In this document: in pieces, positions 17,800 through 53,541 of the stretch | How positions within the stretch are numbered: the first letter of the stretch is position 1 | Layout: each line of letters opens with the position of its first letter | Assembly: GCA_036479895.1 (NCBI GenBank) | Contig: JAZGFW010000302.1 | Location: 1-54,138 of the forward strand | DNA length: 54,138 nucleotides | Direction: 5' to 3' | Source: Cocleimonas sp. | GTDB lineage: Bacteria; Pseudomonadota; Gammaproteobacteria; Thiotrichales; Thiotrichaceae | The notes under the pieces: generated by a model | The model's input: the letters and a program-made list of their open reading frames with translations, nothing else | Told to the model about the DNA's origin: nothing | Databases searched by the model: none | Made by a program: the position numbers and the translations under genes

Positions 17800-18200
17800 T
17801 TAATAATTTATTAAACTATTTATGGCATATCGGTTCCATATCTACCCACAATATAAGTTAGTGGTACTATGATTAGGATCCAATACCAGTTATTAATTAT
17901 CCAGTCTATTATGCTTTTGCTATTCATTTTAAAGCCCCCACTTTTGTTTCTTCTTCTGTTAAAACCACTATATATTCACATTTAAAACATTCAAATGCAA
18001 ATCCTTTAGTTTCCGTTTGTTCTGGATGGGTATTAATACACTCAACCCTTTTTTGCGTCATACCGTCATAATTAAAACATACCATTAATTTTTTTATTAT
18101 ATTGATCTTTTAAAAATATTTATAATAATATTTATAATAATAAATAAAAATATAAAATAAAATAAATATTTTTTTATAGATAAAAATAAATACAATATTA

Positions 18201-18359
18201 ATGTCAGAAAAATCAAAGACAGTAAGTTTATCCGATAAGGCACATGAAATTCTTGTGAAGGTATCGGGCATGCGTAAAGCTAACAAGCGTAATGATTGGA
18301 AGATGCAAGATATCGCATCTGAATGCATTATCGAGAAATACACAAAAGGTGATCAATAA
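18201..18359 (+). CDS. RHH-like regulator leading an operon (not in ORF track)
   Basis: MSEKSKTVSLSDKAHEIL...MQDIASECIIE; TTTTATAG about 29 nt upstream. Confidence 0.65.
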   Translation: MSEKSKTVSLSDKAHEILVKVSGMRKANKRNDWKMQDIASECIIEKYTKGDQ

Positions 18360-19127
18360 ATGGAAATAATAGCAAAAGTAGTAAGATATAATGGAATGTT
18401 ACAGAATAATTATCAGGCTTGGGATATTGAAATAGAAGGTAAATTACACTTTTTAACTTCTGAAGAAAATAGGAGTAACGAATTAAAAGATGGCTTGACT
18501 TATAAATTATTAGTTAATCCATGGCAATCAGGCACGACAACAAAATATATACTGTTACCGAAAAGTGAAATAGTATTATATGCTAAAGAAACGGAAACTA
18601 AAGCAGAAGGAACGGGACCGTTAGGATTAGACGCAACAGGTCTTGAAAAGGATAAGCCTGGATATTACGAGGGGACAGGTCCACTGTCTTCTGTGGGCAC
18701 AAGTGATAATCAATCTTTAACAGTTACCAGACAAGCTATGATTCAACAATTCGATGATTATCAATATGTTATGAATAGAATTGTTGACAAAAAAGATTGG
18801 GTAATTATAAAAGGTAAAGAAGTTTTGAAAAAATCCGGGTTTATTAAAATAGCTACTTTCTTTGGGGTATCCGTTTCTATCAATCGATCTGATATTGAAG
18901 ATTTATCAATTGGTGGTAATTTTAAATTTCGAATGCGGGCTAAAGCAACAATGCCCAATGGTCGATTTATGGAAGCCGTGGGGATGTGTTCGTCCGAAGA
19001 ATATCACGATCAAAATTTTTCACGATCCGAGCACGTCATATACGCAACAGCGGAAACAAGAGCATCCGTGCGTGCTATTTCTAAATTGATGGGTATGGGT
19101 ATGGTATCAGAAGACGAGATGATTTAA
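18360..19127 (+). CDS. Single-strand annealing recombinase (Rad52/ERF-like C-terminal domain) with beta-rich N-terminal domain
   Basis: LKKSGFIKIATFFGVS, GRFMEAVGMCS, ATAETRASVRAIS..GMVSEDEM. Confidence 0.7.
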   Translation: MEIIAKVVRYNGMLQNNYQAWDIEIEGKLHFLTSEENRSNELKDGLTYKLLVNPWQSGTTTKYILLPKSEIVLYAKETETKAEGTGPLGLDATGLEKDKPGYYEGTGPLSSVGTSDNQSLTVTRQAMIQQFDDYQYVMNRIVDKKDWVIIKGKEVLKKSGFIKIATFFGVSVSINRSDIEDLSIGGNFKFRMRAKATMPNGRFMEAVGMCSSEEYHDQNFSRSEHVIYATAETRASVRAISKLMGMGMVSEDEMI

Positions 19128-19478
19128 ATGGATGTAGACGAAAAAATAAGGCGTCAAATAAACGCCAAGGTAAGAGAATTATATCTTATTTCAGGTGGGG
19201 TTTCCTTAATTAACTATACAATCACGATATCTGAAGAATATGAAGCCAACGAAAAAAAATTATATCAAAAAATGTCATTTAATTTGGAGATATCCGCTTC
19301 TGGAACCAGCGAAGATAAAACTAACGTGGTTATCCGTTTTGGAGGAGATAAAATAATAATCGCTTTTGTAGAAAAATGGTATATTAAATTATCAGAACTA
19401 ATGTTTAAACTATACAAACTGGATAAGAAAATGGGGGCTAAAATATATCTAGATAAATTTGTGGAGGTAGGCGAATGA
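19128..19478 (+). CDS. Hypothetical protein
   Basis: Directly coupled in the operon. Confidence 0.65.
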   Translation: MDVDEKIRRQINAKVRELYLISGGVSLINYTITISEEYEANEKKLYQKMSFNLEISASGTSEDKTNVVIRFGGDKIIIAFVEKWYIKLSELMFKLYKLDKKMGAKIYLDKFVEVGE

Positions 19479-20503
19479 CTGAAAAAGATTTAGTAGAAGA
19501 AATCCTGGGAAAAGACAATAATGAATTAGACCCAAATTCAATGTTGATTTGGTGGGAGCTTACTAACAAGGTTAATGTAGCCCAACCTAAGACCCGTATT
19601 ATTCGATTGACAATCAATGAGGCTAGATCCGGGGAAGATTTTCTTTCTGAAAAAGTAAACGAAAAAATTATGGGTAAAATAAAGAAGTTAGTTGATGACG
19701 GTTCATTTAAATATCCTCTATTTATTAGAACAGACCTTTCTAGTATTAAACATGATTTTATTAATACTTGTTATATTGAAAAAGAAGAAAATTTGGAAAG
19801 AAACCTCGATAATTTAATAATGGAAAATAGATGTCTTGGATTTATGGGTGTCCCTTTCTTAGCTATTGTAATTAGGGAATATATACCCCTTGATTCTCGA
19901 TTTAAAGCCTTTTTTGGTCATATGCCTGTTGCCCCGGAAATCAGATTTTTTTATAAAGATGGAAAATTTGAATGTTATCATAATTATTGGCCTAAAGATT
20001 CAATACAAGATAATCCAACAAACGATCCAGATGAATGGGAAAAGAAATGGGAAGAAATGGATACTGAAATACATCAAATAGCTGACGAAGTAATGAAAGA
20101 TGCTGATAAAATAGCAGCCGTTTTAGATGGTTATTGGTCCATTGATTTTGCAAAGGCAAAAGACGGAAGATGGCTGTTTATAGATTCGGCACAAGGGGAT
20201 GCTTCATATCATGGTCCACATCCACTAAAATATACCGGACCGTTAGATATTAAAGAAAAGAAAATTTATACGCAAGAGGAAATGGATAATGCAATTAGAA
20301 ATATAAAATTTTCAGAAATGAAATTCGATTTATCAGAAGATATAGAATTTAAAATAACATATGAACACCAAGAGCATTTCGTAAAATTTATGCAAAAAGT
20401 TCTATCCGTTAAAAAATATCAGAAATTAGCTGATAAATTAGGTCTTGTTTTTGAATTCATGGAAGAGGACGAAGAAAAGATCTCCGGCAACATTCAATCC
20501 TAG
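19475..20503 (+). CDS. ATP-grasp enzyme (R2K-like)
   Basis: YPLFIRTDLSSIKH, IVIREYI, PEIRFF, WSIDFA..DGRWLFID. Confidence 0.78.
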   Translation: MTEKDLVEEILGKDNNELDPNSMLIWWELTNKVNVAQPKTRIIRLTINEARSGEDFLSEKVNEKIMGKIKKLVDDGSFKYPLFIRTDLSSIKHDFINTCYIEKEENLERNLDNLIMENRCLGFMGVPFLAIVIREYIPLDSRFKAFFGHMPVAPEIRFFYKDGKFECYHNYWPKDSIQDNPTNDPDEWEKKWEEMDTEIHQIADEVMKDADKIAAVLDGYWSIDFAKAKDGRWLFIDSAQGDASYHGPHPLKYTGPLDIKEKKIYTQEEMDNAIRNIKFSEMKFDLSEDIEFKITYEHQEHFVKFMQKVLSVKKYQKLADKLGLVFEFMEEDEEKISGNIQS

Positions 20504-20521
20504 TTATTATGGGTGATAAAA

Positions 20522-20740
20522 ATGAAAATCAAAGAATTAATTGAAAAATTGAAATCATGTGATCCTGAAGAAGAAGTTATATTAGCTAAGGATAATGAAG
20601 GAAATGGATATAGTCCATTGTCTAATATTAGTCATGACATTTATAGACCTGAATCTACTTGGAGTGGTGAACTTGTAGAATATGAACGAAATCGTAAAGA
20701 TGGAGATATTGATGTAGTTACTTTGTGGCCGGTGAATTAA
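20522..20740 (+). CDS. Conserved small phage protein
   Basis: MKIKELIEKL...KDNEGNGYSP...LWPVN. Confidence 0.7.
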   Translation: MKIKELIEKLKSCDPEEEVILAKDNEGNGYSPLSNISHDIYRPESTWSGELVEYERNRKDGDIDVVTLWPVN

Positions 20741-21262
20741 ATGAACGAAAAAGAAATTAGAAAATTAATACACGAAAATAGTATTTACATAGCAAATAAA
20801 TTATGCGATTTAGATCACGAAATAGTAAAATATTTCGTGAAAACTAATAATTATATTCCACCGGATTATGCATATGTTGATCATAATGCTGGACGTAATA
20901 GGAAGTTAATTTTAAGATGGATTGCTTTAGCAATTGAAGCACAATTTGCTGATAGTAATTGTATTATAATTACGGGGCATGATACCTATAAAGCAATTGC
21001 ATTAATTTTAAAAGGAACAATTTCAAAATCAAATATTATATTAAGTGGAGAATTGTTATCTCAATTGATCGATCAAGAAGTATCTGATATTCCCGTAATT
21101 GCAATAGATGGTTTGCTTAAAGATACAATTACTAGAATATATATAATAAAACAAGATAGTATAAAATATTATAATGGAAATTTAACATTAGAATTCTCAA
21201 AAGAACATAAATTAGGTATAATAAAAGATCTTCATGGAGGAGTAGAATTATTACTAAAATAA
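20741..21262 (+). CDS. Truncated HK97 major-capsid-protein paralogue (C-terminal part)
   Basis: YVDHNAGRNR / IIITGHDT / IPVI..DTITRIY / IIKDL are colinear with MCP YVDHNSDVDR / VLITGPN / YPII..DTLERIY / QLRDY. Confidence 0.7.
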   Translation: MNEKEIRKLIHENSIYIANKLCDLDHEIVKYFVKTNNYIPPDYAYVDHNAGRNRKLILRWIALAIEAQFADSNCIIITGHDTYKAIALILKGTISKSNIILSGELLSQLIDQEVSDIPVIAIDGLLKDTITRIYIIKQDSIKYYNGNLTLEFSKEHKLGIIKDLHGGVELLLK

Positions 21263-25043: not shown

Positions 25044-27602
25044 TTATATTGCTTCTCTAAAACTTATTCTGGCTCTTGTTTTTACATTTTCACCCGTTTT
25101 TTTATTCAATGGAGAGCCTAATATTAATCGAGCCATTAAATTATTATTTTCAAATAACCCCCATTCTGTTGCTGAAAAAGTTACGATATCGCCGTCTTCA
25201 ATTAAATTTTCAAATATCGCTTCTCCTATCCCAGTATCGTCTTGAGGAAATCCTGCTTCCATTCCTTGTCGGGTACCCGGCAAACTATCATTATCAAGAT
25301 CTGTATCGCTAGTTGTTACGGGTGTTGTTCCTGTCCCGTATTCCATGATAGTATTAGCGTTATTTAATGGATTTACTATCTTACCTTGGCATAAATCCCT
25401 CATAAGATTAAGAAAGGCAATCATCAATTTAATAGGATCATTATCACTAAATGCACTAGTTATTCTTATTCTAAATATCTCATCTGCGGATTTAGAAAAA
25501 CTAGATCCTAATACTACCCGTGCCATTAATATTCCATCTACCTTGAATCCTATTTCTTGTGCAGTAAATGTAATAATATCGCTATCTGATAAACTAGATT
25601 GATGTTCCATTTCAGCGTCACCACCGTCTCCGGGATATCCGGAATCCATTTCTTTATCAGTGCCTGAAATCGGAATATCCAATGCAGAATCTGTTATCAT
25701 TACCCCGGTTGTTCCACTTCCAAGTTCTATTGTTGTATTAGCAGCGTCGAATTTTGTTACTGCTTCACCTTGTACAATATCACGTAATCTATCAAGCATA
25801 ACAGTTAATGGTATCATATCGGTTGAAGTAACAACGCTATTCCAAGCGGTGGGTTGTGTATTCCAAATTACGCCGTCATCTTGTCCACTATCATTCCAAG
25901 TATAATTTAAATTAGTTTGTTTCTCAATAACAACACTTGGTGTTATCGCTGCTACTAAAAAAATATCCGCTAAAATAATTAATGGTAAAGAATTATTAAT
26001 ATTTCTTTTTTGTAATTGCCTTTTATCATATAATAAATCTGAAATGGTTTCATCATAATCAGGATTGTAAATATATACCTTAATAATCGTTTCTGGAACA
26101 TCTAACCAATGGGTTACACTATGAATGTATGTTAGTTGATTTACCCATCCTAATTGAGCATAATTAATTCTTATTAATCCTGTTCCTTGAAGATTAAGAT
26201 CCTGCGGTACTGATAAATCGCCGGGTATTATTTCCCCCGAATCTTTAGTTACCCTTGAATTAAGATATTTTCTTATTTGTGGTTCGGTAGTTGCATCAGG
26301 AACATCTAAAAATCCAGTACGCGTGAAATTATCGGCGATGCTTCCTAAATCCTGTTTTTTAAAGACTTGGCCAGCATCATCAATTGCATAGAAACTATTC
26401 TTTATTTTATGTTTTATTTTTGGAAAACTAGGAGTAAAAAAGTCTTCTCCTTCTGTATAATTTATACCCAGATCATTATTAGCTCTGGGTTGGAATCTCC
26501 ATTCTAAAGTAGGCGATAATCTTAAACTATGATTCTCTCTTAAAACTAATTCTTGCATTATTTCTAATGGTGTCATATAAAAAAATATATCATCATACGT
26601 TGTAGTAGTAGGATCCAAATTATAATTAAATAAATTTAATCCATAAGTATCTAAAAGATCAGCAATAATTACATCTGCGGTATTATTATTACAATCATAA
26701 GTTGTAATAGGATCACCATGTAATATAATCGCATAATCAACCGAATAAATATTTAAATATCCATTTTCATTAGGATGCCAATCTTCAACAATCCCCGTAT
26801 ATTTTCCTTCCCCGTTTTGAATTATTTCTAATCGTTTGTTTCCAGTAACTAATAATAGATTCACATTACTATTATCTTCGTCATCTGATATTTCCAATGA
26901 AGCAATATTAATTTGATATACATGATCTACGTCAGTATACTTTCCAATATAAAGATCATTTGTCAATACGTTTCCTTGTATTTGTAAACTAGGTGTGTCT
27001 TGACTTAGATTGTAAATATCGGCTCTTTCAATTTCAGTTAAAACATGATCATAGATACGAACGTCATCCATTTCACCATCATAATCTTGGTTACTCCAAT
27101 TGCCTAATCGAATTTGTGTTGCTGTAGTTGAAGATATAGCTACGGTAATTGTAGTTTGTAAAACATTTCCTTTATAATATCTTAAATCTGTCCCATCATA
27201 CGTTAATGTTACATGAGTTAAAATATCATTCGGAAAATCGGCATGAGCACCATAACTAACGATAGTTACACCATTACTAAAAATTCTTAATTCGTCATCC
27301 CCCGCTGTGGGTTTAATATAAATAATAAGCAAATCAGAAGCATTAGAAGCATGTCCACAACTATAATATACATTAGATGGTGCCCCAGGAGTCTTTAACC
27401 ATCCAGACAACGACCAAGCTGATAAATTGCTTAATTTTGCTAATGTTGATGGTAATGTAATATAATCCGTGGTTCCGTTAAATACCCCCGCATTATTAAT
27501 TTTCCCAGTAACAAAAGTGACACCATTATTAGTTCCATTTTTATTATTCCCTGAATAATCCAGAACATCCTTATCTAACGGATAATAAGCAGCCAAAGCC
27601 AT
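25044..27602 (-). CDS. Tail-tip/hub protein with N-terminal LamG (concanavalin-like) domain and duplicated C-terminal domain
   Basis: AYYPLD..LDYSGN, HVTLTYDG, YDGEMDDVRIYDHVLT; C-terminal repeat LDRLRD..NTTIELGSGTT / LNLMRD..NTIMEYGTGTT. Confidence 0.8.
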   Translation of the reverse strand: MALAAYYPLDKDVLDYSGNNKNGTNNGVTFVTGKINNAGVFNGTTDYITLPSTLAKLSNLSAWSLSGWLKTPGAPSNVYYSCGHASNASDLLIIYIKPTAGDDELRIFSNGVTIVSYGAHADFPNDILTHVTLTYDGTDLRYYKGNVLQTTITVAISSTTATQIRLGNWSNQDYDGEMDDVRIYDHVLTEIERADIYNLSQDTPSLQIQGNVLTNDLYIGKYTDVDHVYQINIASLEISDDEDNSNVNLLLVTGNKRLEIIQNGEGKYTGIVEDWHPNENGYLNIYSVDYAIILHGDPITTYDCNNNTADVIIADLLDTYGLNLFNYNLDPTTTTYDDIFFYMTPLEIMQELVLRENHSLRLSPTLEWRFQPRANNDLGINYTEGEDFFTPSFPKIKHKIKNSFYAIDDAGQVFKKQDLGSIADNFTRTGFLDVPDATTEPQIRKYLNSRVTKDSGEIIPGDLSVPQDLNLQGTGLIRINYAQLGWVNQLTYIHSVTHWLDVPETIIKVYIYNPDYDETISDLLYDKRQLQKRNINNSLPLIILADIFLVAAITPSVVIEKQTNLNYTWNDSGQDDGVIWNTQPTAWNSVVTSTDMIPLTVMLDRLRDIVQGEAVTKFDAANTTIELGSGTTGVMITDSALDIPISGTDKEMDSGYPGDGGDAEMEHQSSLSDSDIITFTAQEIGFKVDGILMARVVLGSSFSKSADEIFRIRITSAFSDNDPIKLMIAFLNLMRDLCQGKIVNPLNNANTIMEYGTGTTPVTTSDTDLDNDSLPGTRQGMEAGFPQDDTGIGEAIFENLIEDGDIVTFSATEWGLFENNNLMARLILGSPLNKKTGENVKTRARISFREAI

Positions 27603-35266: not shown

Positions 35267-36544
35267 TTATTTATAATCTCGGAGCTGAAAATTTGCTCTT
35301 GGATTATGACTTTCTAATTCAAGAATAGATAATAGTGCTTCTTTATTCTTGAAAGCATCTAAATCAATATAATCATTAGATGCAAATAGAGTCGTTGGAA
35401 GAAGATCTTTTAAGAATGTTCCAACAGTAGCAGATAGATAAATTCCGTAGATTCGCTCAAGGGTATCAGTTGTAACAGTTGTGTCCTCAATGATAGGATA
35501 ATCACGATATGAAGCAAGAGCATAACCACCTTCTTCTTTACCCACGGTATACATTCCGTTAAATCCGCCGGCCCATTTGGATACTTGCCTTTCAGATCCA
35601 ACAAATCTTTGTTTGGACCCGGCTTCTTGATTCATTCTTTCTAGCATATTAGGACCAGTAATTAAAACAAATTGGCCTCCAGTCATATCTCCTTGTCTAT
35701 ATCTTCTTGTAGCAGCTAAAGCGGTGTCAATATCATCAAATGAGAAATCACGATCAACATCAGAATTATGATCAACATACGGATCTAGATCTGTAGATGC
35801 TGATTTATCAATACCAAAAATATCTTCGTCACCATCATCATAACTAACAGCAACCCTTAAAGCAGTTGTAGCAGTTAATCGATCTAATGATTCAACGTTT
35901 ACTCCAGCTAATGTATTAAAATCCTGGGTAAGATAAGAATCTATATCACGCATATGTTCAGATTTGACTAATGGTCTTTGAGATTCAATACCAGGGATAT
36001 TGTCATCGCCTGTTCTGGAAAGCAATTGAGCTTTTAAAGTTTCTTCATAAGTATGAACAATTTCCTTAGGTACATTATTATATTTTTCTGGTGTTTGATA
36101 ATCGGTATCCGGTAAAACAGCACCTTCGGTCTGACCTCCACCGGTTGCATGCCTATCTACTGCATAATTCCAACCAGACATAGCCCAAGGAGCATGTGGG
36201 AAAACAGTTAATATATTAGCACTTAAATCTTGTGTTTGCCAAAGCCTAGAACCATAAACAATATTAACAAATCCAGCTTCTGTTGATGTTATAGGATCGT
36301 CGGCTTTAGATAGCCAAGTTAAATAATTAGAATCAGTATGTGGATAATAAGTGGCTAGTAAATCTTTTGTGGTTCTAAATTTAAAACTAGTTTTTTTCTG
36401 AAATAGTGGATTTCTTCCATCAAAAGTACGGCCTAAAACCTCCGCTTCATATTGCATACGCTTATCAATCATTGTATCGACATAATTGACTACTTGTGCG
36501 GCTTGGGCTTCGTTTAATTGTCCCCTGCTAGATTGTCTACTCAT
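35267..36544 (-). CDS. Major capsid protein (HK97 fold)
   Basis: NIVYGSRLW...PHAPWAMSGW, EGAVLPDT, PKEIVH, ESLDR resemble halovirus/magrovirus-type MCPs (from recall); follows the protease gene. Confidence 0.9.
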   Translation of the reverse strand: MSRQSSRGQLNEAQAAQVVNYVDTMIDKRMQYEAEVLGRTFDGRNPLFQKKTSFKFRTTKDLLATYYPHTDSNYLTWLSKADDPITSTEAGFVNIVYGSRLWQTQDLSANILTVFPHAPWAMSGWNYAVDRHATGGGQTEGAVLPDTDYQTPEKYNNVPKEIVHTYEETLKAQLLSRTGDDNIPGIESQRPLVKSEHMRDIDSYLTQDFNTLAGVNVESLDRLTATTALRVAVSYDDGDEDIFGIDKSASTDLDPYVDHNSDVDRDFSFDDIDTALAATRRYRQGDMTGGQFVLITGPNMLERMNQEAGSKQRFVGSERQVSKWAGGFNGMYTVGKEEGGYALASYRDYPIIEDTTVTTDTLERIYGIYLSATVGTFLKDLLPTTLFASNDYIDLDAFKNKEALLSILELESHNPRANFQLRDYK

Positions 36545-38980: not shown

Positions 38981-39796
38981 CTATTGTATTGGCTCTACTG
39001 TTATATCCATTGCACATCCAACAGAAGTATTATTAGAACTTACATTATTAGCCCTCAATTTAAATAGAGTTAATGGAGAGAGTTTTCTAGGAGGTCTATA
39101 AACAATAGGAACCGATGAACTACCTAATGAAACTACGCTAATAGTTGCTTTTACTTGCCAAACTTCCCCCATTGGTTTAGATAATAATGTAATTTCAGCA
39201 TCATTTGCTAAACCTTGTGTTCTTAAAATATGAGGTTGCAAGGAATGAATGAATGCTTCTTTACCGGATTCGACCGCAAAAACTGCCATTAAAGTTTCAT
39301 TATTACCAGGTAAAATTACTGCCATGGTAATTCCTGAATCAACGGAACCTGTGGCAATTATAATTCCAGCATTTTCTCCACCGGACCCACCTGTCCTGAT
39401 TATTGCCCTGAATAGACATTTATATGATTTGCTTGAAACTATTGGTGTAGTTCCATTTAGATTTAAAATCTCTGATTCTTTGATATCATTATTATCTATT
39501 CCTTCTATTTCTATTGTTCTTGCACCGGCCCCCCCAATATTATCAGTAGAATTATCAGATACAATAGAAACAGTTTGAGCACCGGACGGAAACCAATCCC
39601 ATGTAAAACCATTATCTGTTATATCTTTTGTTTGTCCAGTATCTATATCCGGATTCCCACCAAATTTATTAACTGGATATGCACCTTCAATTATATTTTT
39701 GGCAATGGCTTCCTTATGATCTAGTCGTACAAATTCTCCTTCTTTACTTGTTTTAATAGGAACCCAATTATTATCTTTATCTTTTCCCCATCCCAT
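38981..39796 (-). CDS. Putative virion protein, tandem paralogue B
   Basis: VNKFG.NPD, VSIVS, GARTIEIEGID, LNGTTP, GNNETLMAVF. Confidence 0.75.
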   Translation of the reverse strand: MGWGKDKDNNWVPIKTSKEGEFVRLDHKEAIAKNIIEGAYPVNKFGGNPDIDTGQTKDITDNGFTWDWFPSGAQTVSIVSDNSTDNIGGAGARTIEIEGIDNNDIKESEILNLNGTTPIVSSKSYKCLFRAIIRTGGSGGENAGIIIATGSVDSGITMAVILPGNNETLMAVFAVESGKEAFIHSLQPHILRTQGLANDAEITLLSKPMGEVWQVKATISVVSLGSSSVPIVYRPPRKLSPLTLFKLRANNVSSNNTSVGCAMDITVEPIQ

Positions 39797-39797
39797 A

Positions 39798-40613
39798 TTA
39801 CTGCACCGGTTCCACTGTTATATCCATACTCCCACCTATTAATAAATTGGTAGTACTAACATTACTTACATTTAATTTAAATAAAGTTAGAGGATCAAAT
39901 TGTTTTGGAGGATCAAAAAGAACCACTGGAGCTGAATCGCCCGTTGTTTCCATACTAAAACGCTCTTTTACCTGCCATACCTCGCCGTTAGGCTTTGCTA
40001 ATAAGGTAATTTCCGCAGAAACAGCAACGCCCGCTGTTCTTAAAGTTCTTAATTTTATTCCATGGATAAAACCCTCCTTACTTGTTTCGATTGCAAAGAC
40101 GCACATCAAGGTTTGATTATTTCCTATTAATATTACGAACATAGTTGTTCCTGAATCAGTTGAACCTGTGCATGTAATATTCCCAATATTGGCTCCAACA
40201 GAACCAGCTGTTCTTATTATAGCTCTAAATAATAATTTGTAGGTTTTAGTCGATACAACGGGTGTAGTGCCATTTAAATTAATGGTTTCCGATACCTTCG
40301 CGTCATTTTCGTCTATTCCTTCGATAAATATTGTTAAAGCCCCGGTATCAGTTCCTGCTCCTCCATCTTCATCGTCACTTGATACAATGGAAACAGTCTG
40401 TGCGCCAGAAGGGAATAAATCCCACGTGAATCCGGTATCGGTCATATCCTCCGCTGCATCTACATCAGGATTTTCACCGAACTTATTAACAGAATAAGCT
40501 CCTGCAATTATACTTTTAGCGACCGCAGTTTTATGATCCATCCTTACAGGTTCTCCCTCTTTACTACCCACTGATTCTACCCAGTTACCATCTTTATCTC
40601 TGTGCCAAGTCAT
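39798..40613 (-). CDS. Putative virion protein, tandem paralogue A
   Basis: Same length (271 aa) and colinear with paralogue B; both end in MDITVEP(I/V)Q. Confidence 0.75.
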   Translation of the reverse strand: MTWHRDKDGNWVESVGSKEGEPVRMDHKTAVAKSIIAGAYSVNKFGENPDVDAAEDMTDTGFTWDLFPSGAQTVSIVSSDDEDGGAGTDTGALTIFIEGIDENDAKVSETINLNGTTPVVSTKTYKLLFRAIIRTAGSVGANIGNITCTGSTDSGTTMFVILIGNNQTLMCVFAIETSKEGFIHGIKLRTLRTAGVAVSAEITLLAKPNGEVWQVKERFSMETTGDSAPVVLFDPPKQFDPLTLFKLNVSNVSTTNLLIGGSMDITVEPVQ

Positions 40614-45563: not shown

Positions 45564-45869
45564 TCAATTTTTCTTATCAATACCGAATATATTATTATCA
45601 CCGGCATTCTCTTTTGAATAATCGATTTCTATTTTACGACCTTCTTCGTATTTTATACAATCACATTTATTGCAATCCAATATTACAATCATTTGTCGTG
45701 AAGGTGAATTTAATGGATCATCCACATTTTTTGTTCTATGACAATCTCTATCATGAATACAAACACAATAATATTTATATTTAACCACTCGGTCCATTGA
45801 TTCAAATTCATCATTTGCTAATGTATTTGTATCTTGACAAAGATAACTATTTATTGATTGATCTTCCAT
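45564..45869 (-). CDS. Cys/His zinc-binding protein
   Basis: CVCIH..CH...CNKCDCIKY. Confidence 0.6.
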   Translation of the reverse strand: MEDQSINSYLCQDTNTLANDEFESMDRVVKYKYYCVCIHDRDCHRTKNVDDPLNSPSRQMIVILDCNKCDCIKYEEGRKIEIDYSKENAGDNNIFGIDKKN

Positions 45870-46003: not shown

Positions 46004-46948
46004 TTGAATATTATTTTTGATATACCTAAAGAAAATAATAACCCTAAAACCCATAAATTCTGTTATGATTGTGGTTCCTATAAATTCATTAAAACCATTT
46101 CTAATATTGTTTGTACGGTTTGCGGATTATGCACTAGTGAAAAATTATATTCAACCTTACAACCATTCAAAGAAGTAGCAGATTATTCACAACCAATTTT
46201 AACAAACAACAAAAAAGCTAATGAAGTAACGGACCGATTATTATACTGGATCCAACTGGAGATATCAATCGAGAAAAAAATTACATTGATTGTTGATATT
46301 AATACTTTAGCTAATGAATTTCATATTTTATCATTAAATTATCCTTCTGAATATTATCTTGCAGCAGCAATTATTTTTTCTAAACAATTTATATTTTTAT
46401 CGCGTGAAATGGTAATAGGATACTTATTCAATGATTTTAACAAGGCATGTGGAAAAATGCTAAAAAAAATAGATAAATTAACGCGTGATAAGTACGATAC
46501 CTTCGGAAATGACTTGAATACTGGATTAATATACTTAAAAGATAAATCAAATAATAAAAATGATAATCATTACAATGAATACTTAAGTAAATATTGGGAA
46601 AAGAAAATAATTCAAGTAAATAATATTGTTAATGGTAAGAAAATGACACAAACAAACGTATTAAAAAAATCTAGACTATCTCAAAATAGTTACTATCGAA
46701 ATAAAAAGAGATTAAATGGATATAACCAATATAAACAACTTGGAAGACCCTCAATAATTGATAGTTGTCCTGAGGCCATTAATATTATATTACAATTATA
46801 TAAAGAAGGAAAAACCCTTATCCAGATTAAAGAATATCTAATAGATAATTTATTGAATTTTGTTGAATTAAAAATATATTATAAAATCATCAGTTTATCA
46901 ATACAAGCTATAAGGAATTATATATTAAAGAATCGAAACAATATTTAA
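46004..46948 (+). CDS. TFB/TFIIB-like protein (zinc ribbon, helical core, extra C-terminal HTH)
   Basis: CYDCGS.......IVCTVCGL is the TFIIB ribbon pattern; YLAAAIIF is cyclin-box-like. Confidence 0.62.
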   Translation: MNIIFDIPKENNNPKTHKFCYDCGSYKFIKTISNIVCTVCGLCTSEKLYSTLQPFKEVADYSQPILTNNKKANEVTDRLLYWIQLEISIEKKITLIVDINTLANEFHILSLNYPSEYYLAAAIIFSKQFIFLSREMVIGYLFNDFNKACGKMLKKIDKLTRDKYDTFGNDLNTGLIYLKDKSNNKNDNHYNEYLSKYWEKKIIQVNNIVNGKKMTQTNVLKKSRLSQNSYYRNKKRLNGYNQYKQLGRPSIIDSCPEAINIILQLYKEGKTLIQIKEYLIDNLLNFVELKIYYKIISLSIQAIRNYILKNRNNI

Positions 46949-52630: not shown

Positions 52631-53422
52631 TTAATCTAAAGATTTACCATATATATAAGGAATAATATCATTTAAAATATATTCTGTTGCGATATTCCAA
52701 GCTCGTATTCCACCTGATTGTTCATCTAGTGATTTGTCATCATAATTTAACATTCTATCTTCTAGATATTTCTTGGCAAAATGAATTGCTTCCTGTAAAG
52801 TCATTTTATTATTTAAGGATGTTTTAAAGAAATCACTTATTTCCGTATTAGTTAAAACGAGTACATATTGACATTCAATACATCTAAAATCATTATCATT
52901 AATAAAAATTTTTTCAAGATGATTATTCTTACATTCTTGGATCATTGCTTGACTATTTCCTTTAATAGTAAGATATCCTGGATTTTCTTCTAAACTTTTT
53001 TCTATCGGTTTCAAACTAATATTTGTTTCGGGCCTTAATTTTTTTCCTCTTAATATTCTATCAATATTTGATAGAGCAGCCAACCAAATTTCAGGAGGAT
53101 CCGTCGCATTGGTATCGCCAATAATTGATTTTATACCTGTTAATTTTTCATCCAGATTTTGAAATATTTCAGAAAGTCTATAACTCATATTTCTTAGTGA
53201 TTCAATATGCTCGTTCATTTCAAAATCTGGAACTTTAATTATCTTATCATATCTTATAATATCTTGCATTTTCATAAATATTAATGCATAAGCGATATGA
53301 CTTTGATGATTATCCAAAATTTTATTTTCTCTGATATTGTTCATAATCTCTTCTAGATCATTTAATTCAAATTTATTAATTCTAACGATTTCACTAACTT
53401 TTTTTCCTTCAATGCTATCCAT
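52631..53422 (-). CDS. Hypothetical protein with zinc ribbon
   Basis: Start likely MDSIEG at 53422; CKNNH...FRCIEC. Confidence 0.7.
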   Translation of the reverse strand: MDSIEGKKVSEIVRINKFELNDLEEIMNNIRENKILDNHQSHIAYALIFMKMQDIIRYDKIIKVPDFEMNEHIESLRNMSYRLSEIFQNLDEKLTGIKSIIGDTNATDPPEIWLAALSNIDRILRGKKLRPETNISLKPIEKSLEENPGYLTIKGNSQAMIQECKNNHLEKIFINDNDFRCIECQYVLVLTNTEISDFFKTSLNNKMTLQEAIHFAKKYLEDRMLNYDDKSLDEQSGGIRAWNIATEYILNDIIPYIYGKSLD

Positions 53423-53541
53423 GATTGTATCAATGTATATACTAAATAATATTTTATAAGGATAATGTAAGGATGATATAAAAAAGATAAACGAGAGGAA
53501 CAATTTACCAATAACTTGCAGAGTACTATAAACAGGATTGG

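What the first reader, a model, noticed from the sequence alone, without database searches (positions are those of the whole stretch)
20741..21262. Truncated second capsid protein in the early arm: candidate capsid decoy or assembly interferer
Seen: this 173-aa ORF aligns by eye, in order, with the C-terminal half of the MCP at 35267-36544 (YVDHNAGRNR vs YVDHNSDVDR; IIITGHDT vs VLITGPNM; DIPVI..DTITRIY vs DYPII..DTLERIY; IIKDL vs QLRDY). It lacks the N-terminal half and lies on the opposite strand among non-structural genes. From recall, TGHDT and the G.I.DL ending look closer to MCPs of other archaeal viruses than to this virus's own MCP, which suggests capture. Established: several defence systems (CapRel, Lit) are triggered by capsid proteins, and satellites use capsid-interfering proteins. 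Inference: a decoy for a capsid-sensing defence or a dominant-negative block on competing viruses.
Basis: partly seen in the sequence, partly recalled or inferred. Interest (0 to 1): 0.85.

Follow-up and report, generated by a model that had tools for sequence, protein, structure and literature searches.

The report
Stand-alone capsid A-domain viral gene
This likely archaeal tailed virus keeps, besides its normal capsid gene, an intact small gene from a rare conserved family that copies only the central "axial" part of a capsid protein, plus a second gene holding another capsid piece, and these likely act as mimics that distract host capsid-sensing immunity, which is untested.

Summary
The homology is real. 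ORF 20741-21262 barely beats chance against its own major capsid protein (MCP; BLASTP E 0.03), but it matches an MCP profile clearly (26.4 bits against 6.8 for the best shuffle; profile-profile 98.3%). It is not the whole C-terminal half. It keeps the A-domain elements and the MCP's last strand, and lacks the P-domain hairpin between them. Three homologues (166-170 aa, 42-50% identity) share these borders, so it is not a decaying remnant.

New here: ORF 45564-45869 carries the adjacent MCP piece. The two closest related viruses also carry separate MCP pieces, one beside a portal piece.

Capture is not shown: the "foreign" motifs are the majority state among 60 MCPs, and trees reject neither origin. 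The fold is unverified (pLDDT 43.5). The host is probably archaeal, and the bacterial bin looks like a binning error.

Best reading: a non-virion capsid mimic that competes for a host capsid sensor (0.4, inferred). I found no paper on virus-encoded stand-alone A-domains in six searches. This scan noted the same pattern before on other DNA (eight unchecked notes: seven phages, one giant virus).

The parts
20741..21262 (+). 173-aa stand-alone MCP A-domain-derived gene (P0001)
20731..20735 (+). GGTGA ribosome-binding-site-like motif 5 nt before the ATG, inside the end of the upstream gene, whose stop codon abuts the start
   Evidence: sequence; function inferred
20873..21142 (+). A-domain core, residues 45-134, homologous to MCP 256-366
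21212..21232 (+). segment matching the MCP's last strand; the P-domain hairpin that precedes it in MCPs is absent
18201..21262 (+). tightly packed non-structural gene run ending in the finding; includes an R2K-type ATP-grasp-like gene at 19475-20503
   Evidence: PF14243 E 1.2e-5, just under its cut-off
35267..36544 (-). the virus's own full-length HK97-fold MCP (P0002)
   Evidence: phrog_24667 E 1e-43; model pLDDT 77.6; Foldseek HK97 capsids and encapsulins E down to 3e-10
45564..45869 (-). 101-aa gene just upstream of the large terminase, carrying two short MCP pieces (45786-45857 and 45573-45605) around a Cys-rich insert (P0017)
   Evidence: 31.1 bits with the 12-MCP profile; hhalign 87%; 56% identity over 25 aa to own MCP 199-223, 0 of 500 shuffles

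Best explanation
The gene is an intact, conserved derivative of a major capsid protein that keeps only the A-domain elements, and its product is likely made with the non-structural genes and would act as a capsid mimic that occupies a host capsid-sensing immune receptor without switching it on. Shown: MCP origin, A-domain-only borders, an intact family, position outside the structural arm, and further MCP and portal pieces in this and two related genomes. Inferred: that it folds as an A-domain, is expressed before the MCP, stays out of the virion, and binds a host sensor. The short pieces in other genes would be parallel mimics of other sensed surfaces.
For: Four proteins of 166-173 aa share the MCP-like final strand (three end there, P0001 nine residues later) and the same missing hairpin at 42-50% identity. 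In a substitution-only neutral simulation only 0.34% of 5000 lineages stayed stop-free at this divergence. A more distant member of the same layout lies in G107 (28.3 bits against 6.6 for the best reversed frame). All 3 genomes that share this terminase carry MCP pieces; none of the other 47 of 49 virus records showed a separate small MCP-piece gene. The 25-40-residue pieces are too short to be capsid subunits, and one sits beside a portal piece (0 of 500 shuffles against each of three portals). [quoted passage not shown] DSAD1 is a precedent for competing with a structural trigger for its sensor (PMC11087589, passages).
Against: The host and its defence systems are unknown, and the cited sensors were characterised in bacteria. 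The same preprint shows that core segments of other triggers suffice to activate their sensors, so an A-domain could be a trigger, not a decoy; its MCP truncation data are in a figure I could not see. The family is only about 21-27% identical to MCPs, its own least of all. Invariant residues are not significantly enriched at MCP-conserved columns (13 of 32 against 19 of 81, p 0.10). The fold is unverified. Most of the 47 records without pieces are partial (3 are at least 90% complete). Partial copies are not limited to virion genes: the non-structural ORF 52631-53503 also has two. The contexts of the three homologues were not seen.
Confidence: 0.4

Rival explanations
1. Assembly interferer or modulator: the A-domain joins nascent capsomers through A-domain contacts and, lacking the P-domain and E-loop, blocks shell growth of a competing virus or tunes the virus's own assembly.
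For: A-domains form the contacts within capsomers (PMC8346489 passages). The family scores higher against other viruses' MCPs than its own, as expected for a foreign target. ORF 45564-45869 heads the terminase gene run.
Against: MCP-conserved residues of the central loop (R313, G330, G340 of the own MCP) are mostly lost in the family. The short pieces and the portal piece cannot form subunits. The genome encodes its own head genes and is not a satellite.
Confidence: 0.2
2. Exapted domain with an unrelated or indirect job, for example binding a host chaperone, protease or other factor that also handles the MCP. The scattered short pieces are by-products of recombination in accessory regions.
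For: Long stem branch (0.95-1.5 changes per column) and family-specific conserved stretches. Cellular A-domain-only proteins exist beside metabolic enzymes (PMC8346489). A non-structural gene also has partial copies.
Against: Of 36 window-gene profiles, only the MCP profile gave five extra partial hits among 300 small ORFs, though its profile was deeper than most. The same MCP segment recurs as a separate gene in two viruses whose MCPs are 41% identical.
Confidence: 0.22
3. Minor virion protein, such as a vertex plug or decoration derived from the MCP.
For: MCP paralogues serve as minor head proteins (T4 gp24; recalled).
Against: The gene lies outside the head module on the opposite strand. 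It is absent from the complete relative G108 and sits at a different place in G107. It lacks the lattice-forming parts.
Confidence: 0.1
4. Decaying remnant of a duplicated or captured MCP gene, or a chance resemblance.
For: Low GC (25.1%, GC3 12%) against 36.2% for the MCP gene. P0001 lacks 15 residues present in its three homologues. The pairwise match to the own MCP is marginal.
Against: Profile matches far above controls; same borders in four divergent intact proteins; neutral decay would leave about 5 stops per lineage.
Confidence: 0.05

Closest known systems
HK97-fold MCPs of the phrog_24667 / SU10_MCP (PF17236)-like group, including haloviruses HVTV-1 and HCTV-1
   Same: Source family: A-domain motifs are colinear and the C-terminal strand is kept. 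PF17236 hits relatives P0009 and P0010.
   Different: No N-arm, E-loop, spine helix or P-domain hairpin; 173 against 425 aa; outside the head module.
Family 4 'A-domain encapsulins' (PF08967/DUF1884, PDB 2PK8; PMC8346489, passages read)
   Same: Free-standing A-domain of the HK97 fold; mostly archaeal.
   Different: They are cellular, about 100 aa, and downstream of enzymes in Thermococcales. This family is 166-173 aa, viral at least here, has no PF08967 hit, and derives recognisably from one viral MCP group.
DSAD1 anti-DSR2 protein (PMC11087589, passages read)
   Same: Working model: a phage protein competes with a virion structural trigger for its sensor.
   Different: Different sensor and trigger (tail tube); no homology tested; activity shown for DSAD1 and not here.
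Satellite capsid-interference proteins (SaPI Ccm, P4 Sid) and T4 gp24 (recalled, no call)
   Same: MCP-related or MCP-binding proteins that change capsid assembly.
   Different: As recalled, Ccm and gp24 keep most of the HK97 fold, and satellites lack their own MCP. This virus has its own head genes.

Membership tests
HK97-fold major capsid protein | A-domain homology | tested here: met
   hhalign 98.3%, E 2.2e-14
HK97-fold major capsid protein | N-arm, E-loop, spine helix and P-domain present | tested here: not met
   no match before MCP residue ~254; residues 376-412 absent in all 5 members
HK97-fold major capsid protein | three-dimensional A-domain fold | tested here: inconclusive
   single-sequence model pLDDT 43.5; best Z 5.4; Atlas model pTM 0.29
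Family 4 A-domain encapsulins (PF08967) | A-domain only, other HK97 parts missing | tested here: met
   by sequence homology
Family 4 A-domain encapsulins (PF08967) | match to Pfam PF08967 or to the 2PK8 sequence | tested here: not met
   no PF08967 hit for 5 of 5 members; no such hit in solved-structure searches at E up to 10
Family 4 A-domain encapsulins (PF08967) | cellular gene of about 100 aa downstream of a metabolic enzyme | tested here: not met
   173 aa on a circular viral contig; contexts of P0014-P0016 not seen
Competitive anti-defence proteins (DSAD1-like) | binds the sensor and blocks activation by the trigger | not testable with these tools
   host and sensor unknown
Satellite capsid-interference proteins | encoded by an element without its own MCP (recalled) | tested here: not met
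   own MCP, portal and terminase present
Minor virion protein | present in virions | not testable with these tools
   needs proteomics or cryo-EM

The most novel reading that the evidence does not exclude
A lineage of archaeal tailed viruses builds a dispersed set of decoys from its own virion proteins: a folded stand-alone A-domain, short MCP epitopes and a portal epitope. These soak up structure-sensing immune receptors. That would be a general anti-immunity strategy, evidence for capsid-sensing immunity in archaea, and a map of which capsid surfaces hosts recognise.
Probability: 0.3. Interest if true: 0.85.

Novelty: new variant of a known kind. Interest (0 to 1): 0.62.

Why it matters
Capsid proteins are among the most widely sensed viral triggers, and viruses cannot easily change them. 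A gene that keeps exactly the domain that three known sensor families bind offers a directly testable escape route: co-express sensor, capsid protein and fragment. The fragments could also serve as bait to find capsid sensors in archaea. Even if the decoy idea fails, this is a virus-encoded, independently evolved stand-alone HK97 A-domain family, relevant to how the fold splits into modules.

Tried and rejected
Family and structure libraries gave nothing for P0001: Pfam, PHROGs, NCBIfam and solved-structure sequence searches.

The word-indexed search found only P0001 itself among 74 candidates; the alignment search added no new member beyond P0015, P0016 and P0019. Scans for genomic context of the family found no confirmed locus in viral contigs with P0001, 15 loci with the family alignment (the six new-record loci checked were full-length MCPs), and none in metagenome contigs. 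The terminase alignment found only G107 and G108 in viral contigs and nothing in metagenome contigs. No P0001 or MCP match in 106 other genomes of the bin's family.

No HK97 chain is among the 50 rows listed for that poor model, which is uninformative. The Atlas gave no usable hit. The complex prediction of MCP 215-425 with the family gave no verdict (score 0.00, partner fold uncertain). No sequencing run was listed. The promoter and terminator scan was at chance level (31 sites against 27.6 +/- 5.3).

Rejected: capture from another virus as a shown fact; a recent duplication (45 of 72 nt identical in the best piece); a TFIIB identity for ORF 46004-46948 (not confirmed). A paper I recalled on the origins of capsid proteins was not held and is not used. 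Passages of 10.1101/2023.04.06.535777 and PMC13716836 held nothing on capsid decoys.

Full report
SETTING. The window is a whole contig (G000:C302) with a 127-nt terminal repeat and 31.4% GC, in a bin of 39.4% GC. It encodes a tailed-virus structural arm on the - strand (terminase, portal, MCP, tail tube, tape measure) and replication and methylase genes on the + strand. Two other contigs of the bin read as ordinary Gram-negative housekeeping genes (my reading of the sequences). None of 106 other genomes of the bin's family has an MCP match. All 9 named virus records matching the MCP have archaeal hosts, and 3 of 4 genome contigs with a related MCP are archaeal. I infer an archaeal virus placed in the wrong bin; the host is unknown.

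THE OBSERVATION. The ORF is as described. Its ATG abuts the upstream stop and follows a GGTGA motif by 5 nt. Against its own MCP it is marginal: E 0.03, 115 of 2000 shuffles. Against a 12-MCP profile it scores 26.4 bits, best control 6.8; against 61 MCPs 31.3 bits, best of 3448 reversed frames 6.2. The MCP model (pLDDT 77.6) is HK97-fold by Foldseek. Mapped on it, the ORF covers residues 256-366 and the last strand, and omits the long strand pair at 376-412. I read these as A-domain and P-domain hairpin from established HK97 topology. P0001's own model is too poor to test the fold (pLDDT 43.5).

A FAMILY UNDER SELECTION. A search of 1.84 billion representatives returned 4 proteins at E up to 0.001: P0001 and three homologues of 169, 166 and 170 aa at 50, 48 and 42% identity. 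All begin with Met and lack the same hairpin; the three homologues end at the MCP's final motif, and P0001 runs nine residues past it. The family matches the 60-MCP profile at 98.3%. A 147-aa gene of virus G107 has the same layout but a long branch. Under substitution-only neutral decay, 0.34% of 5000 simulated lineages stay open at this divergence. No DNA was available for dN/dS. Invariant residues were not significantly enriched at MCP-conserved columns (13 of 32 against 19 of 81, p 0.10). The homologues lie on contigs of 50.6 kb, 12.3 kb and 855 nt whose content I could not see, so their viral origin is not shown.

MORE PIECES. The same profile found ORF 45564-45869, directly upstream of the large terminase. 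It holds MCP 199-223 (56% identity, 0 of 500 shuffles) and a further 11-residue MCP motif around a Cys-rich insert. In profile positions it ends at 226 and the finding begins at 234, but the genes are 24 kb apart on opposite strands. G108 (complete, MCP 41% identical) has a 102-aa gene with the same segment (29.7 bits). Both show Y-x-Y after the conserved motif, seen in 0 of 60 MCPs, which is weak evidence of common origin. G107 has, one gene from its A-domain gene, a 215-aa ORF with an MCP-like N-terminal piece (2 of 500 shuffles against its own MCP; not significant against the other two MCPs) followed by a portal piece (44% over 41 aa; 0 of 500 shuffles against each of three portals). I gave 50 of 81 loci to a whole-record search, and 49 records were searched. 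Separate small MCP-piece genes appeared in 2 of 49, G107 and G108, the only viral contigs sharing this terminase. Only 4 of the 49 are at least 90% complete. As a control, 36 window-gene profiles were run on 300 small ORFs of the three genomes. The MCP gave five extra partial hits, the portal one besides the head-morphogenesis genes, and a non-structural gene two. Most control profiles had 1-3 sequences against 20 for the MCP, so sensitivity was unequal.

ORIGIN. The ORF scores better against other MCPs than its own, but the motifs concerned are the majority state (TGxDT in 37 of 60), and the virus's own group has the derived form. In trees of 118 columns (without the long-branched P0019 and P0013) and 82 columns (32 selected rows), the family is one group on a long stem. 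AU tests reject neither own-lineage origin (p 0.56, 0.84, 0.21) nor one foreign donor (p 0.14). Old duplication and capture cannot be told apart.

MECHANISM. Best reading (0.4): a non-virion mimic competing for a host capsid sensor. In bioRxiv 10.64898/2026.01.04.697583 (passages and sections 11-12 read; figures and supplements not seen), Avs7, Avs8 and Avs10 bind the A-domain's penton/hexon interface, while CapRel and Lit detect short MCP motifs. That fits a whole-domain mimic plus short-epitope mimics. DSAD1 shows that competition with a structural trigger works (PMC11087589, passages). Against this: core segments of other triggers activate their sensors, the similarity to the own MCP is low, and no host sensor is known. 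Rivals: unrelated exaptation (0.22), assembly interference (0.2), minor virion protein (0.1), remnant or chance (0.05).

COMPARISON AND NOVELTY. It is not a capsid subunit, and not a member of the cellular Family 4 A-domain encapsulins (PMC8346489, passages; no PF08967 hit), though it shares their architecture. Six literature searches (listings and abstract openings only, apart from the papers named) showed no description of a virus-encoded stand-alone A-domain or capsid-fragment decoy; the library lacks most subscription papers. This scan's earlier notes describe the same pattern in seven phages and a giant virus (unchecked). A look-up by sequence found no look-alike of this protein, and a word search for an archaeal-virus case listed only unrelated notes.

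VERDICT. Real, selected and undescribed in the papers searched; function inferred. New variant of a known kind; interest 0.62.

Noticed in passing
window 45564-45869 (-): Second MCP-derived gene: two short MCP pieces around a Cys-rich insert, first gene of the terminase run, absent at that place in G107.
   Followed up: yes
L091:522-1169 (G107 26681-27325): 215-aa mosaic ORF with an MCP-like piece followed by a portal piece, one gene away from an A-domain gene.
   Followed up: partly
L090:1170-1535 (G108 2313-2675): ORF directly upstream of the G108 MCP-piece gene ends in a stretch resembling the MCP N-terminal motif; weak (14 of 500 shuffles).
   Followed up: partly
L123:510-2339 (G117) and L124 (G110): MCP gene interrupted near its 5' end by an insertion of about 700 nt; in G117 it holds a 218-aa ORF that looks like a homing endonuclease (recalled motif, untested), so possibly an intron.
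   Followed up: partly
L121:1176-2165 (G136) and L122:1075-2622 (G113): A short MCP N-terminal motif is embedded in a head-morphogenesis-like and a prohead-protease-like protein; possibly a shared cleavage or targeting signal.
   Followed up: no
window 19475-20503 (+): R2K-type ATP-grasp-like gene two genes upstream of the finding (PF14243, E 1.2e-5); no link tested.
   Followed up: no
window 46004-46948 (+): 314-aa gene divergent from the terminase run, with an N-terminal Cys pair motif, conserved in G107 and G108; a TFIIB-like identity was not confirmed.
   Followed up: partly
window 38981-40613 (-): Tandem paralogues of 271 aa, 61% identical (phrog_8198), in the head module; no match to them was listed in G107 or G108.
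   Followed up: no
window 17924-18085 (-) and 52631-53503 (-): A 53-aa ORF repeats part of the 290-aa ORF, and another part of that ORF stands alone in G108.
   Followed up: no
window 1-54138: Circular archaeal-type virus contig filed in a bacterial genome bin, probably by error.
   Followed up: partly
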